Sequence record: OZ346212.1 | Direction: 5' to 3' (one strand) | DNA length: 64,000 bases | Source: a phage | Shown here: positions 1,050-53,936 of the stretch, piece by piece | Layout of the letters: each line of letters starts with the position of its first letter | Position numbering within the stretch: the first letter of the stretch is position 1 | Program-made: the position numbers and the translations under genes | The notes under the pieces: model-generated | What the model saw: only the letters and a program-made list of their open reading frames with translations | Database searches by the model: none | Told to the model about the DNA's origin: nothing

Positions 1050-2767
1050 TGGCAACAGCTGTTTTTAAACCTTACCGTGATTACTCTACAATGGCTGCAC
1101 GGTTTCATTACCGAACAGTTCAGGATACTGCCGTTCCTGGTAGGGATTATGATCATGTTGAGGGCGATGTAACTATCCCAGTTGGGGCAACCAGTATTGA
1201 GATCCCCGTGGAAATTGTTGACAAATTACCCAACAGGTTGCCAAGAAGCTTCTTTATGGAGTTTTCATCAAAATCTCAAGGGGTGATGATTGGAACACAA
1301 AGGGCGAAATGTACAATAGTTTCAGATGAGAATCTTGACAGGATATCTTGGGATACTGTTGAGGAGAGAATGTTTCACCCAAGATATTGGGTTACAACCA
1401 CTCAGCAGACTGAAAGTACCTGTATTGTTGCAGATAACAACTGTTGTATTAACCGTTTAGTGTCAAGAACATATGGAGGTATGGCTGGGTGCATTTGGGA
1501 AACAGTTGACAAGTATGACCATTTCGGTATTGGGTTTGATGATCACTATGAGATGAGAAACACCAAGCTTTGGTTCAGAATGTCAATAACCAACGCCAGC
1601 AACTTCTCCACTCCTGAAAAGATGATTATGACTGTAGACCTTGTTGATGGCACAATCATCTATGTTCCTTTAGCTCAATATGCTGTCAGCATCTCAGAGG
1701 ATAAGAATGTTGCAGAAATTCATATTGATTTTGAGGACTGCGTCGGGATGGACCAGAACAACAACATGATGGGTGTTGATCCTCGGCAGGTGAGAAGGAT
1801 TTTAATACCGCTTATGCCTAAAGACTGGGTAAGTAATAGCACAGACCCGAGAACGGAAAATGTAAAGTGTGAGTTGCGCCTAGATCTGCTTCAGCCAGAC
1901 ACAGGCTGGAAAATGATGCAACTTAACAATATCCAGGTGAGAGAGCACGATGTTGGGATCTGCACCGCATATGACGATATGTGGAACGTGTCTCCTTTAA
2001 GGGTGTTGAACAATATCAAGCGTCTGGGCTATACCGGAACCATAAACCATTATGTTGGTATGAGTCATTATTATGACTACACATGGTCAGGAACCCAATG
2101 GTCTATAAACAGAACAGGAGCGCTAAACGCTGCAGCTTATAAATGGCATGATGATTTTATGTACAATGCCAAACGACATAACTTCGACGTTATGCAATCT
2201 GTAAGTTTTGAGCTTTTCAGCGATGCCTGCCCGTTGGAATGGACCCAAAGAGACTGGAACGATAACTACGCTAAAACAGGGTATACACCTTGTAGCTACC
2301 TCCTGTCTCCAACCATTGAAGAGGGTATGAATTTCCTTACTGCAGTATTTAAGAATTTTGCATCAGCCGCTATGAGAAACAACCTGCCAGTGATTATGCA
2401 GGTTGGTGAACCGTGGTGGTGGTACAATACCGATACTCGTAGACCTTGTATTTATGATTACCCTACAAAACAGGCGTTTTATGATGAGACAGGCGAGTAT
2501 GCATTAGATATTGGGACTATTGACGATCCTAAAACTGGCGGTGTTTACGATAAGTATGTAGCATTTTGTCGTGGTAAGCTTGGCGCTCGTATTGCGGCTA
2601 TTTCAAAGGCAATAAAGGCACACGCTGCATCAGCTCAGATGACAGCTCTGCTGTTTTCCCAACCATTATGGAAACCGAGCTTACGCAAAAGCTTAACCTT
2701 GCTGACCAATATAAAAAGGAAGCAGGTGCTCTTGATTTCTTCTGCACCGAGTGCTACGATTGGGTGA
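1049..2767 (+). CDS. putative tail fiber / baseplate-attached protein (572 aa)
   Basis: Large ORF translationally coupled to upstream gene; N-terminal stretch DYDHVEGDVTIPVGATSIEIPVEIVD resembles a Calx-beta-like beta-sandwich motif; position equivalent to fiber gene after baseplate genes. Confidence 0.65.
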   Translation: MATAVFKPYRDYSTMAARFHYRTVQDTAVPGRDYDHVEGDVTIPVGATSIEIPVEIVDKLPNRLPRSFFMEFSSKSQGVMIGTQRAKCTIVSDENLDRISWDTVEERMFHPRYWVTTTQQTESTCIVADNNCCINRLVSRTYGGMAGCIWETVDKYDHFGIGFDDHYEMRNTKLWFRMSITNASNFSTPEKMIMTVDLVDGTIIYVPLAQYAVSISEDKNVAEIHIDFEDCVGMDQNNNMMGVDPRQVRRILIPLMPKDWVSNSTDPRTENVKCELRLDLLQPDTGWKMMQLNNIQVREHDVGICTAYDDMWNVSPLRVLNNIKRLGYTGTINHYVGMSHYYDYTWSGTQWSINRTGALNAAAYKWHDDFMYNAKRHNFDVMQSVSFELFSDACPLEWTQRDWNDNYAKTGYTPCSYLLSPTIEEGMNFLTAVFKNFASAAMRNNLPVIMQVGEPWWWYNTDTRRPCIYDYPTKQAFYDETGEYALDIGTIDDPKTGGVYDKYVAFCRGKLGARIAAISKAIKAHAASAQMTALLFSQPLWKPSLRKSLTLLTNIKRKQVLLISSAPSATIG

Positions 2768-45099: not shown

Positions 45100-45129
45100 T
45101 ACTTGAAAATTCCTGGCATATCAAGTATA

Positions 45130-45600
45130 AGGGGGATTTCTAAAATGGATTTCCTCCTTTTGATATTTCACCGGGCTGGATATTTTAAAATTCTTAGAAA
45201 ATCAGAAAATGGATCGAAAACTAAAATGGATTTTTCAGAGTAGGCGCGACAAGCTGAATAACTCATCCTATCGTTTGCACCATATTCCAGGCCACCATTA
45301 TAGATTTCCCACACATGCTAACCTCTCCCTACTAGAACTTCCTCCACTTACCCTTGACCTTCTATGGTAACAATCTAACCGCTATCTTGAAGTTGCGGTG
45401 CAGCTTTCCAGGTACTCGATCTACTTTTCATTTCAGGGCTTGGATTTTCTGAAAATTTTTCTCGATAAATTTCTCAGTACTCGATCTGTTTTTCGTTTTC
45501 TGAATCGGATTTTCTGGAAATCGTTCCGGCTCTCAACCTGAAATTTTTGGGGACGAAATCGATTTTTCGTTTTCAGAAATGGATTTTTAAAATTTCTATA
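45130..45600. repeat. AT-rich noncoding region with iteron-like short direct repeats
   Basis: AAATGGAT(T/C) x4, GTACTCGATCT x2, GGATTTTCTG x2, TTTCGTTTTC x2; no credible ORF. Confidence 0.6.
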
Positions 45601-45648
45601 TGGGAATATTTTAGTGGATACTGTTTTATAGGAAATTGTTACGGAGGG

Positions 45649-45666
45649 TAATTAGCATGCTAATTA
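45649..45666. promoter_or_regulatory. 18-bp perfect palindrome TAATTAGCATGCTAATTA (candidate protein-binding site)
   Basis: Perfectly self-complementary 18-mer in noncoding DNA. Confidence 0.5.
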
Positions 45667-45689
45667 AATTTATTAAATGCGAGGAGTTC

Positions 45690-45960
45690 TCATTTAGAAT
45701 TTTGAATGATAATCATTCTCGTTTGCAGAATAACGGGCAGGCCCGGTGATTGTCTCCCGGCCCCTGTTGCCCCGGCTTGTTATTATAGTATCACACAGGA
45801 CAAAGAAAGCAAGGACTTTTTGCATAAATTTTTAAATGATAATGATAACCGTTCTCATTTTATGCAGCGCCCATCCCCGGTGGTTGTCTCCCCCGTCACC
45901 GGTGCCTGCCGTCCTTTCGATATGTATATTGTGCCACCTGGCGGGGCCGCTGTCAACACT
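45690..45960. repeat. two tandem structured noncoding repeats with Fur-box-like head (ATGATAAT...) and conserved core CCCGGTG(A/G)TTGTCTCCC
   Basis: Copy 1 about 45692..45790, copy 2 about 45838..45960; track ORF 45706..46062 spans them but looks noncoding. Confidence 0.5.
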
Positions 45961-46120
45961 TTTCAAAAAATTTTTCTAACCTGGTGCGCTAACCGTTGCA
46001 ACCTGGCGGGGCCAGCCTGGCAGGACCTAACTGACCAGGTAGGGGAGAATGAAGGCTTGTAAACCTGGTGGGCCTATGCTACAGGATAGGTAACAATTGA
46101 AGAGGAGGTACAAAAATGAT

Positions 46121-46231
46121 ATGATCCCCCTGGAAAATGTAGCTATTAATGACTCTGAGGCTATCGCCCTGGTTGAAAAGGCTATGGCGGGAGCGTTGGA
46201 ACATAAAGAAGAGTACGAAAATGGTGGTTAA
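46121..46231 (+). CDS. hypothetical small protein (36 aa), not in ORF track
   Basis: ATG preceded by strong SD GAGGAGG at 46102; ends in TAA inside motif GGTTAACCTGGCGGGG. Confidence 0.4.
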   Translation: MIPLENVAINDSEAIALVEKAMAGALEHKEEYENGG

Positions 46232-46283
46232 CCTGGCGGGGGCGGCAGGTGGATTCTATCATAAAAATAATTTAAAATAGTAG

Positions 46284-53560: not shown

Positions 53561-53936
53561 GGCTTATCATTTTTGAGTAAACAATCTATACGTGAACAGT
53601 GAGGCAAGTTAGCAGCCGATAGATTAGATATTAACCTGCAGACTTCTGACCGTCTAGACGTCTAAACGCCCACACAACAAGGATTATACATACAATACTG
53701 AATGTAAACAGGGCCGCAAAAATGCTACCATACCACAGATTGTAAATTTTTCATGCAGCACTTGACAAAGAGGAGAACTTAATTTTATCAGGATAGGCAA
53801 GAATGTCAAGGCATGACTGCTCACTAAACAAGCAAACAGTCATGTGTGGGAGGTAAGTGATTGTGGTGGTAGGAAATTTAGTTGAAAGATGTGTTATAGG
53901 TGCTTCCAGCACTTTAGCCGGGCAGCTAATTGTGTG

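What the first reader, a model, noticed from the sequence alone, without database searches (positions are those of the whole stretch)
45649..45666. Isolated 18-bp perfect palindrome TAATTAGCATGCTAATTA
A perfectly self-complementary 18-mer lies in noncoding DNA between the iteron-like block and the structured tandem repeats. Its length and perfection suggest a dimeric DNA-binding protein site (operator, partition or origin-binding site) rather than chance.
Basis: seen in the sequence. Interest (0 to 1): 0.45.

Follow-up and report, generated by a model that had tools for sequence, protein, structure and literature searches.

The report
Genus-specific palindrome at a phage promoter
The 18-base palindrome is real and sits in a conserved gene-free control region of an rV5-like E. 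coli phage, perhaps as a regulator's docking site over a weak leftward promoter. Its length and perfection are about what chance gives, and most related phages carry an imperfect copy.

Summary
TAATTAGCATGCTAATTA is at 45649-45666 and is the longest perfect palindrome in the window. However, 26% of dinucleotide shuffles of the window also give a perfect palindrome of 18 bp or more.

The window is a Vequintavirus (rV5-like coliphage). The site lies in a roughly 1-kb gene-free region, about 8 kb from the genome end. It is single-copy in a complete 137-kb relative and absent from five other rV5-like genera and one unclassified Vequintavirinae phage that share the surrounding architecture.

Among about 117 sequenced genus members, only about a third keep it perfect. 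In 42 the centre is GCGTGC, and in 24 (including rV5) T16 is C. No compensating change was seen.

Even so, 16 of 18 positions are invariant while adjacent bases are hypervariable. Alignment puts the right arm on the -35 hexamer of a leftward sigma-70 promoter that is strong in other genera, and the left arm in its spacer. The dyad also lies within 1.5 bp of the next slot in a 29-bp-phased row of Fur-box-like dyads.

Best reading (about 0.4): an operator-like dyad over that promoter, with the binding protein unknown. Main rival (about 0.35): a fortuitous palindrome.

Rejected: small ORF, RNA hairpin or terminator, Fur box, partition site, genome terminus.

The parts
45649..45666 (.). The perfect 18-bp palindrome TAATTAGCATGCTAATTA. 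It is genus-specific and single-copy. Only position 9 (A/G) and position 16 (T/C) are polymorphic.
45658..45663 (-). A -35-like hexamer TTAGCA on the minus strand, which is the core of the right arm. It aligns with the TTGACA/TTGACT -35 hexamers of a leftward promoter in 4MG, Salmonella 6S and Ro1. It is invariant in the genus.
45635..45640 (-). A -10-like hexamer AACAAT (GACAAT in some relatives), 17 nt from the -35-like hexamer. The pair matches only 8 of 12 consensus positions. It aligns with the -10 GAAAAT of 4MG.
45643..45648 (.). The hypervariable hexamer GGAGGG immediately left of the palindrome, with six variants in the genus. It looks like a Shine-Dalgarno sequence for the ATG at the palindrome centre but is not conserved.
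45667..45672 (.). The A/T block AAATTT immediately right of the palindrome; its first five bases (45667-45671) are invariant and 45672 varies. It lies upstream of the -35-like hexamer on the minus strand and could act as an UP-like element (inference).
45582..45641 (.). An AT-rich spacer that is the second least stable 60-bp stretch of the whole 64-kb window. It lies between the repeat block and the palindrome.
45402..45600 (.). Three iteron-like direct repeats of about 65-74 bp with the core GTACTCGATCTGTTTTTCGTTTTC. The architecture is conserved in the other rV5-like phages examined.
45678..45692 (.). A degenerate Fur-box-like 7-1-7 dyad (TGCGAGGAGTTCTCA), centre 45685. This is 27.5 bp from the palindrome centre.
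45702..45721 (.). A Fur-box-like dyad matching 15 of 19 positions of GATAATGATAATCATTATC. Its 7-1-7 core TGATAATCATTCTCG has centre 45714, 29 bp from the previous box.
45928..45956 (-). The best promoter-like site in the region: leftward TTGACA-17-CACAAT with a TG extension. It is opposite in direction to all flanking genes.

Best explanation
The palindrome is an operator-like dyad, meaning a docking site for a dimeric DNA-binding protein. It overlies the -35 hexamer and half of the spacer of a weak leftward sigma-70-type promoter (TTAGCA-17-AACAAT, minus strand 45663..45635). That promoter points into an easily melted AT-rich spacer and three iteron-like repeats.

A protein bound there would block RNA polymerase, or replace a poor -35 contact. 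It would thereby gate leftward transcription into the repeat block, probably together with whatever binds the two Fur-box-like dyads lying 27.5 and 56.5 bp to its right.

What is shown: the palindrome, its invariance in both arms, its position relative to the homologous promoters, and the phased boxes. What is inferred: that the promoter fires, that a protein binds, and what the transcript does. The protein is unknown, because no recognisable DNA-binding domain was found in the window's ORFs. The element is specific to the genus Vequintavirus.
For: 1. Sixteen of 18 positions are invariant in 20 non-redundant genus members. By comparison, 30 of 77 columns vary in the rest of the spacer 45596-45690 (Fisher one-sided p = 0.02), and the 6 nt next to the left arm occur in six variants.
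2. Three 30-mer alleles account for 98 of about 117 records, so little other variation exists.
3. MAFFT aligns the right arm TGCTAA with TGTCAA (the minus-strand -35 TTGACA) of 4MG and Salmonella 6S, and aligns window ATTGTT with their -10.
4. Those genera have a leftward promoter scoring 9-10 of 12 with a TG extension at exactly that place.
5. TTAGCA-17-(A/G)ACAAT is present in all 8 genus variants checked.
6. The invariance of the left arm is not explained by a promoter spacer alone, whereas dyad recognition explains both arms.
7. The palindrome centre (45657.5) is within 1.5 bp of the next slot (45656) in an array of dyad boxes phased at exactly 29 bp in four genera (ukendt, DU_PP_I, 4MG, Ro1) and in the window itself.
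8. Within the 1.2-kb gene-free region alone, a palindrome of 18 bp or more arises in only 33 of 5000 shuffles (post hoc).
Against: 1. Window-wide, the palindrome is not significant (105 of 400 shuffles), and another perfect 18-mer sits inside a gene in Gotham.
2. Perfect symmetry is kept in only about a third of the genus, and both common alleles break a pair with no compensating change.
3. Against the variability of the whole gene-free region (about 20% of columns), 2 variable columns in 18 is unremarkable.
4. The promoter match is only 8 of 12, and such matches are common in AT-rich DNA: 11 occur in 200 bp here. One metagenomic relative loses the T at position 6 of the -10.
5. There is no second copy or half-site dyad in 137 kb, and half-sites are not enriched in the window.
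6. No helix-turn-helix, ParB or ribbon-helix-helix family was found among 100 window ORFs or 10 flanking ORFs.
7. The exact 18-mer is absent from the enterobacterial representative genomes and occurs only at chance level elsewhere (23 hits in 596 Gb).
8. The other rV5-like phages examined (five further genera and one unclassified Vequintavirinae phage) manage without it.
Confidence: 0.4

Rival explanations
1. The palindrome is fortuitous. The right arm is conserved because it is the -35 and upstream A/T part of a (possibly decaying) leftward promoter. The left arm happens to mirror it and has not yet diverged in a young, recombining genus. No protein recognises the dyad as such.
For: Perfect palindromes of 18 bp or more occur in 26% of shuffles, and a second one lies in a Gotham coding sequence. 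Two thirds of genus members carry symmetry-breaking alleles at high frequency, with no compensation. There are no further copies and no candidate binding protein. It is absent in other genera with the same architecture. Conservation is not exceptional against the region-wide rate.
Against: The left arm (8 nt) is invariant while the 4-6 nt beside it are hypervariable, and the palindrome is less variable than the rest of the spacer (Fisher p = 0.02). It coincides with the one gene-free region (33 of 5000 local shuffles). It also coincides with the phased slot of the box array.
Confidence: 0.35
2. The palindrome is an origin-associated element. In this reading the gene-free region is the replication origin, made of iteron-like repeats, an AT-rich unwinding zone, dyads and activating promoters. 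The palindrome marks the right border of the unwinding zone, either as a binding site for an initiator or accessory protein or as a cruciform-prone sequence.
For: Three conserved direct repeats. The adjacent 45582-45641 is the second least stable 60-mer in 64 kb. Tandem promoters fire toward it. The layout resembles ori-lambda, which has four 18-bp iterons plus a 38-bp AT-rich segment (PMC3349717). The origin of rV5 is unknown (PMC3606486).
Against: There is no GC-skew inflection at 45.6 kb. No initiator gene is recognisable beside it. The palindrome is missing from other genera with the same layout. The hairpin is weak, at -2.6 kcal/mol as RNA. There are no experimental data.
Confidence: 0.1
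3. The palindrome is a diverged member of the phased Fur-box-like array, bound by the same protein (host Fur or another factor) as the boxes at 45685 and 45714.
For: Its centre is within 1.5 bp of the 29-bp phase. The half-site AATTAGCA matches the box half-site AATGAGAA at 6 of 8 positions (read directly from the sequence). A relative (ukendt) has four boxes where the window has two.
Against: It scores at most 9 of 14 on either 7-1-7 consensus, which is the level of the neighbouring offsets in the same AT-rich stretch. Its half-sites are 3 bp closer together than in the boxes. Alignment places it on the promoter -35, not on a box.
Confidence: 0.07
4. The palindrome is the translation start of a small gene. 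The central GCATGC supplies an ATG (45657), preceded by GGAGGG, which opens a 30-codon ORF ending at 45755.
For: The ORF is open in 22 of 23 aligned sequences, and ATG to GTG keeps a start codon. A few records annotate a small CDS here.
Against: The Shine-Dalgarno-like hexamer is the most variable spot in the region, with six variants. In the first 11 codons there are 2 synonymous changes against 6 non-synonymous changes plus 1 nonsense change (EdH4). Most of the ORF overlaps DNA that is conserved across genera where the ORF does not exist.
Confidence: 0.03
5. The palindrome acts as an RNA hairpin or terminator in a transcript that crosses it.
For: It can form a 7-bp stem with a 4-nt loop on either strand. 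Leftward read-through from the promoters at 45956 and about 45787 would transcribe it.
Against: The hairpin is only -2.6 kcal/mol and is lost in the minimum-free-energy fold of longer plus-strand contexts. There is no U tract, Rfam finds nothing, and the polymorphisms show no covariation.
Confidence: 0.03

Closest known systems
Palindromic repressor operators that overlap the -35 hexamer and spacer of a sigma-70 promoter (the general class: LexA boxes, TetR-type and phage repressor operators; established knowledge)
   Same: It has 18-bp dyad symmetry. It is centred at about -30 of a promoter-like site and covers the -35 hexamer plus 9 nt of spacer. Both arms are conserved, and the centre is tolerant to change.
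   Different: No cognate repressor is identifiable. The promoter is weak (8 of 12) and unproven. The site is single, where such systems often have several operators. A third of the genus carries a mismatch in one arm.
Fur boxes (19-bp GATAATGATAATCATTATC; 7-1-7 TGATAATnATTATCA)
   Same: It is an AT-rich dyad. It sits in register (about 29 bp) with neighbouring dyads that do match the Fur consensus: 15-16 of 19 in the window and 14 of 14 in phage 4MG.
   Different: The palindrome itself matches only 9 of 14. It has even (9+9) rather than 7-1-7 symmetry, and its half-sites are 3 bp closer together.
Iteron-type phage and plasmid origins such as ori-lambda (four 18-bp iterons plus a 38-bp AT-rich segment, PMC3349717; from my own memory, a palindrome flanks the AT-rich segment in lambda)
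   Same: Direct repeats, an adjacent very AT-rich segment, then a palindrome, with transcription directed toward the region.
   Different: The repeats are about 70 bp, not 18 bp. No initiator gene surrounds or adjoins the region. Origin activity has never been tested in rV5-like phages.
KorA and KorB operators of IncP plasmids (GTTTAGCTAAAC and TTTAGCSGCTAAA; recalled from memory, so a lead and not a test)
   Same: They share the half-site TTAGC / GCTAA in inverted orientation.
   Different: The central spacing is 2 bp here, against 0 or 1 bp. The site is single-copy, whereas RK2 has many. No ParB/KorB-family protein was detected.

Membership tests
Dimeric-repressor operator | Dyad-symmetric sequence of about 14-20 bp | tested here: met
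   Perfect 9+9 palindrome. It is 8 of 9 pairs in the two other common alleles.
Dimeric-repressor operator | Overlap with core promoter elements | tested here: inconclusive
   It covers TTAGCA (-35-like) and the spacer of an 8-of-12 leftward promoter-like site. That site is homologous to 9-10-of-12 promoters in other genera. No TSS data exist.
Dimeric-repressor operator | Both arms under constraint, or compensatory changes | tested here: inconclusive
   Both arms are invariant except one position, beside hypervariable neighbours. No compensatory change was seen, and two symmetry-breaking alleles are common.
Dimeric-repressor operator | A cognate DNA-binding protein is encoded by the element or present in the host | tested here: not met
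   No DNA-binding Pfam family in 10 flanking ORFs or in 100 window ORFs. Nothing is annotated in relatives. Host factors were not testable.
Dimeric-repressor operator | Specific protein binding | not testable with these tools
   Needs a gel-shift assay or footprinting.
Fur box | Match to the 19-bp or 7-1-7 consensus | tested here: not met
   The best score is 9 of 14 at any offset across the palindrome, whereas neighbouring boxes score 12-14 of 14.
Partition site (parS / KorB operator type) | Several clustered or dispersed copies, plus a ParB-family protein | tested here: not met
   Single copy in 137 kb, with no copy at 3 or fewer mismatches. No ParB family among window ORFs. The phage is virulent and has terminal repeats (PMC7471380).
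Iteron-type replication origin | Direct repeats next to an AT-rich unwinding element | tested here: met
   Three repeats at 45402-45600. The stretch 45582-45641 is the second least stable 60-mer of the window.
Iteron-type replication origin | An adjacent initiator gene, or demonstrated origin activity | tested here: not met
   No recognisable initiator gene nearby. The skew analysis is uninformative (PMC3606486). Origin activity is not testable here.
Intrinsic terminator or structured RNA | Stable G+C-rich stem followed by a U tract, or an Rfam match | tested here: not met
   The hairpin is -2.6 kcal/mol with no U tract. Rfam gives no hit.
Small protein-coding gene start | Conserved ribosome-binding site and purifying selection on codons | tested here: not met
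   The Shine-Dalgarno-like hexamer occurs in six variants. Changes in the first 11 codons are 2 synonymous against 6 non-synonymous plus 1 nonsense.
Genome terminus or packaging site | Location at or next to the physical end or terminal repeat | tested here: not met
   It is 11.36 kb from the left end of Gotham. The junction of the Gotham ends maps to window positions of about 53.46-53.77 kb.

The most novel reading that the evidence does not exclude
The palindrome is the genus-specific operator of a phased nucleoprotein array. In this reading, host Fur sits on the 29-bp-phased Fur-box-like dyads and an unknown dimer sits on the palindrome. Together they gate a leftward promoter firing into an AT-rich unwinding zone and three iterons. 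That would make the region an iron-responsive, transcription-activated origin or non-coding-RNA switch shared by virulent rV5-like phages of several genera, with Vequintavirus having added its own operator.
Probability: 0.1. Interest if true: 0.65.

Novelty: new member of a known kind. Interest (0 to 1): 0.27.

Why it matters
On its own the palindrome matters little. It is a single, genus-restricted, statistically unremarkable dyad. Its value is as a handle on the roughly 1-kb gene-free region that the rV5 paper labelled only 'non-coding'.

That region turns out to have an architecture conserved across rV5-like phages of Escherichia, Klebsiella/Raoultella, Salmonella, Pectobacterium and Aeromonas. 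It contains three iteron-like repeats, a very AT-rich spacer, strictly 29-bp-phased Fur-box-like dyads, and tandem promoters pointing against all flanking genes.

If the dyad is an operator, it marks where leftward transcription into that block is controlled. It would be a cheap first target for gel-shift assays and mutagenesis, to find out whether the block is the long-sought origin or a regulatory RNA locus of a phage group widely used for biocontrol and therapy.

Tried and rejected
- **Further copies.** I looked for more copies in the window (3 or fewer mismatches), in the complete Gotham genome (5 or fewer mismatches, and half-site dyads with 0-14 bp spacers), in IMG/VR and in 185,579 species genomes. 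Only the homologous Vequintavirus site and chance-level scattered hits turned up.
- **Half-site enrichment.** None was found.
- **Small ORF starting at the central ATG.** Rejected on the variable Shine-Dalgarno-like hexamer and the substitution pattern.
- **RNA hairpin or terminator.** Rejected.
- **Fur box.** Rejected for the palindrome itself.
- **Structured RNA in the neighbouring G+C-rich elements.** There is no convincing consensus structure on either strand, and no Rfam hit in the window or in six relatives.
- **Candidate DNA-binding proteins.** None by Pfam or in the annotations of relatives.
- **Genome terminus.** Rejected.
- **More relatives.** IMG/VR and JGI metagenomes added only about four new sequences.
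- **Literature.** Searches on rV5/Vequintavirus intergenic regions, Fur boxes in virulent phages and phage origins found no description of this region.
- **Known binding sites recalled from memory.** I compared the dyad with the consensus sites of E. coli factors including TrpR, DeoR, ArcA and Lrp, and with IncP plasmid KorA and KorB operators. Only the KorA/KorB half-site TTAGC resembles it, and the spacing is different. This was not tested.

Full report
**Observation.** TAATTAGCATGCTAATTA occupies 45649-45666 and is perfectly self-complementary. No other site in the window matches it, even with three mismatches allowed. It is the longest perfect palindrome of the 64 kb; the next longest are five of 14 bp.

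**Chance.** Length and perfection do not set it apart from chance. In 105 of 400 dinucleotide-preserving shuffles of the window there is at least one perfect palindrome of 18 bp or more (mean 0.29 per shuffle). The observed counts of 12-, 14- and 18-bp palindromes are close to what base composition predicts (my own arithmetic). A complete related genome carries a second, unrelated perfect 18-mer (TCCTTCTTTAAAGAAGGA) inside a gene. Only the coincidence with the one gene-free kilobase is unusual (33 of 5000 local shuffles), and that test is post hoc.

**What the window is.**
- The region is 93-99% identical to more than 100 Vequintavirus (rV5-like) coliphage genomes; the closest is EdH4 at 98.6%.
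- All flanking genes are small early genes on the + strand.
- The stretch from about 45100 to 46280 has no credible gene, and the rV5 paper shows it only as a box labelled 'non-coding' (PMC3606486).
- Vequintaviruses have 458-459-bp terminal repeats (PMC7471380, PMC6563267).
- The palindrome is 11.36 kb from the left end of Gotham. The junction of the Gotham ends maps to window positions of about 53.46-53.77 kb. The palindrome is therefore not a terminal element.

**Variation within the genus.**
- In 20 non-redundant sequences, only two of the 18 columns vary: position 9 (A/G, making GCGTGC) and position 16 (T/C).
- Neither change is compensated on the other arm.
- Exact 30-mer searches of the phage collection give 32 records with the perfect form, 42 with the centre G and 24 with T16C. 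The last group includes the type phage rV5. The total is about 117 genus records.
- Counting a few records whose only mismatch is in the flank, about a third of the genus has a perfect palindrome.
- Perfection is therefore not under strong selection.
- The other 16 positions are invariant, whereas the six bases immediately to the left (GGAGGG) occur in six variants.
- The palindrome has 2 of 18 variable columns, against 30 of 77 in the rest of the spacer 45596-45690 (Fisher one-sided p = 0.02).
- Against the average of the whole gene-free region (about 20% variable columns) it is not exceptional.

**Copies elsewhere.**
- The complete Gotham genome (137,025 bp) has a single copy. It has no site with three or fewer mismatches and no half-site dyad at any spacing from 0 to 14 bp.
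- Half-sites are not enriched in the window.
- IMG/VR holds the exact 18-mer only in two Vequintavirus contigs.
- In 596 Gb of species-representative genomes it occurs 23 times, in unrelated taxa and none of them enterobacterial, which I judge to be chance level.
- There is therefore no regulon and no partition-type cluster.

**Readings tested and rejected.**
1. *Small ORF.* The central ATG (45657) follows a Shine-Dalgarno-like GGAGGG and opens a 30-codon frame. However, that hexamer is the most variable spot in the region. The first 11 codons show 2 synonymous changes against 6 non-synonymous changes plus one nonsense change. Most of the frame also overlaps DNA conserved in genera that lack the frame.
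2. *RNA hairpin or terminator.* The stem is worth only -2.6 kcal/mol, has no U tract and disappears in longer plus-strand folds. Rfam finds nothing.
3. *Fur box.* The best score is 9 of 14 on the 7-1-7 consensus.
4. *Captured host or plasmid sequence.* No homology was found.

**Comparative anatomy.** The locus was examined in eight phages outside the genus:
- five further genera (Phapecoctavirus ukendt, Mydovirus Ro1, Seunavirus 4MG, the Certrevirus phages DU_PP_I and KaOmega, Plateaulakevirus 2L372D);
- the unclassified Vequintavirinae phage TH18;
- Salmonella phage 6S, whose record is filed under Demerecviridae.

All have the same gene-free architecture. The parts, from left to right, are as follows.
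- Three iteron-like direct repeats of about 65-75 bp.
- An AT-rich spacer. In the window, 45582-45641 is the second least stable 60-mer of all 64 kb.
- One to four Fur-box-like 7-1-7 dyads. These are spaced exactly 29 bp centre to centre in ukendt, DU_PP_I, 4MG, Ro1 and the window itself (28 bp in the Aeromonas phage; Salmonella 6S and TH18 have a single box).
- G+C-rich conserved sequence.
- Two to three sigma-70-like promoters pointing leftward, against all flanking genes, detected in the four relatives scanned (4MG, Ro1 and Salmonella 6S have three, DU_PP_I two). The window has TTGACA-17-CACAAT at 45956..45928.

None of these phages has the palindrome. The only other dyads found in the spacer and adjacent repeat block were the boxes and, in TH18, two unrelated imperfect AT-rich ones.

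**Where the palindrome sits in that anatomy.**
- A MAFFT alignment places the right arm TGCTAA on TGTCAA of 4MG and Salmonella 6S. On the minus strand that is the -35 TTGACA of their leftmost leftward promoter. The same alignment places window ATTGTT (45635-45640) on their -10.
- The window therefore has TTAGCA-17-AACAAT (45663..45635). This matches only 8 of 12 consensus positions, but it is present in all eight genus variants checked.
- The palindrome covers 3 nt upstream of the -35-like hexamer, the hexamer itself, and 9 nt of spacer.
- Both polymorphic positions fall just outside the hexamer.
- A promoter alone would explain the conservation of the right arm and of the A/T block AAATTT to its right.
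- A promoter alone does not explain the invariant left arm, which lies in the spacer next to four hypervariable bases.
- The palindrome centre (45657.5) is within 1.5 bp of the next slot (45656) of the 29-bp box array (boxes at 45685 and 45714). In 4MG, Ro1 and Salmonella 6S the -35 hexamer of the homologous promoter occupies that slot, 28.5-30.5 bp from the nearest box.

**Mechanism.** The explanation I think most likely (about 0.4) is that the dyad is an operator for a dimeric protein placed over the -35 and spacer of this leftward promoter. It would control transcription into the AT-rich spacer and repeat block, possibly together with the protein that binds the Fur-box-like dyads.
- *Shown:* the dyad, its pattern of conservation, the promoter homology and the phasing.
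- *Inferred:* promoter activity, protein binding and the role of the transcript.
- *The binder:* no candidate is visible. No DNA-binding family appears among 100 ORFs of the window, among the 10 flanking ORFs, or in the annotations of relatives.

The main rival (about 0.35) is that the left arm mirrors the -35 region by accident in a young, recombining genus. Minor rivals are an origin-border element (0.1), a diverged member of the box array (0.07), a small ORF (0.03) and an RNA hairpin (0.03).

**Comparison with known systems.**
- It would work like a classical repressor operator overlapping a -35 hexamer. Membership fails on the cognate-protein criterion and is inconclusive on promoter activity and arm constraint.
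- It is not a Fur box and not a partition site.
- The surrounding layout resembles iteron-type origins such as ori-lambda, which has four 18-bp iterons plus a 38-bp AT-rich segment (PMC3349717). No initiator gene or activity data exist for this region.
- From memory only, the IncP KorA and KorB operators share the half-site TTAGC but with different spacing.

**Verdict.** The inference from 'length and perfection' is not. The operator reading is kept alive by other, modest evidence. The palindrome itself is of low to moderate interest (0.27). The conserved gene-free module around it, and especially the phased Fur-box-like dyads and antisense promoters shared across genera, is the more interesting object and is recorded under things noticed in passing.

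Noticed in passing
window 45675-45721 and 45832-45862; L011 1456-1557, L012 1510-1553, L013 1503-1546, L014 1410-1520, L015 1506-1520, L016 1492-1534, L033 904-922, L034 861-937: Fur-box-like dyads (TGAGAATcATTCTCA / TGATAATCATTATCA). They match 15-16 of 19 positions of the Fur consensus in the window and 14 of 14 of the 7-1-7 core in phage 4MG. They are conserved in the gene-free region of virulent rV5-like phages from several genera, are spaced exactly 29 bp centre to centre where more than one is present (28 bp in the Aeromonas phage), and number one to four copies. These phages also encode iron-dependent class Ia ribonucleotide reductase. I found no description of this in the literature searched.
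   Followed up: partly
window 45402-45600; L012 about 1240-1440, L013 about 1235-1440, L014 about 1200-1400, L015 about 1235-1440, L033 about 640-850, L034 about 615-810: Three iteron-like direct repeats of about 65-75 bp with the core GGTWCTCGATCG..TTTTCGTTTTC..CGTATTT..AAAAATTTTT. They are conserved in the other rV5-like phages examined and carry 3-6 GATC sites per roughly 210 bp in relatives. It is undecided whether they are DNA iterons or the repeats of a leftward non-coding RNA.
   Followed up: partly
window 45956..45928 (-), -10 TATAAT at 45787..45782 (-), 45663..45635 (-); L013 1798..1770, 1638..1611, 1483..1454; L012 1799..1771, 1646..1618, 1489..1461; L015 1773..1745, 1613..1586, 1487..1458; L014 1773..1745, 1611..1583: Two to three tandem sigma-70-like promoters about 150-160 bp apart, all pointing leftward against every flanking gene, in the relatives scanned. 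This implies antisense or non-coding transcription through the G+C-rich elements, the Fur-box-like dyads and into the repeat block.
   Followed up: partly
window 45582-45641: The second least stable 60-bp stretch of the whole 64-kb window by nearest-neighbour free energy. It lies between the repeats and the palindrome and could be an unwinding element.
   Followed up: partly
window 45978, 46000, 46062, 46230, 52055 (+ strand): The motif AACCTGGYGSGS occurs five times, all on the + strand. Four copies cluster in the 250 bp just right of the tandem units. Its function is unknown.
   Followed up: no
window 45237-45410 versus 45170-45236: Inside the gene-free region, a 67-bp block containing AAAATGGAT repeats is almost invariant across the genus. 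The next roughly 170 bp, pyrimidine-rich on the + strand, is the most variable part.
   Followed up: no
window 46118-46125: Relative to all aligned relatives, the window lacks 7 bp (AAAGGTA) just after the ATG of a small gene. The first ATG is now out of frame, and the protein would have to start at the second ATG (46122).
   Followed up: no
window about 45100-45180; L006 148-723, L009 80-724: In SYGMH1 and 241Ecol014PP, a 190-215-aa gene replaces the small genes upstream of the gene-free region. One record annotates it as 'ATP-dependent Clp protease'. The left edge of the region is therefore a mosaic boundary.
   Followed up: no
L012 1803-2396, L015 393-980, L016 540-1211: HNH endonuclease genes are inserted beside or inside the homologous gene-free region in three relatives (Ro1, Salmonella 6S and Aeromonas 2L372D).
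   Followed up: no
window 53607-53777: This stretch is 95% identical to part (282-450) of the 459-bp terminal repeat of Gotham. However, it is in the opposite orientation to the collinear blocks on both sides. The 1.5 kb around the Gotham ends is otherwise not matched in the window.
   Followed up: partly
phage collection records MG0656xx: Sixteen genomes deposited as 'Campylobacter phage', with Campylobacter jejuni as host, are 93-99% identical to E. coli Vequintavirus over this locus. This suggests a mislabelled host or contaminating coliphages.
   Followed up: no
window 45462-45471: TCGATAAATT, which I recall as the high-affinity H-NS nucleation motif, lies inside the first repeat unit. It is invariant in the 11 sequences aligned.
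   Followed up: no
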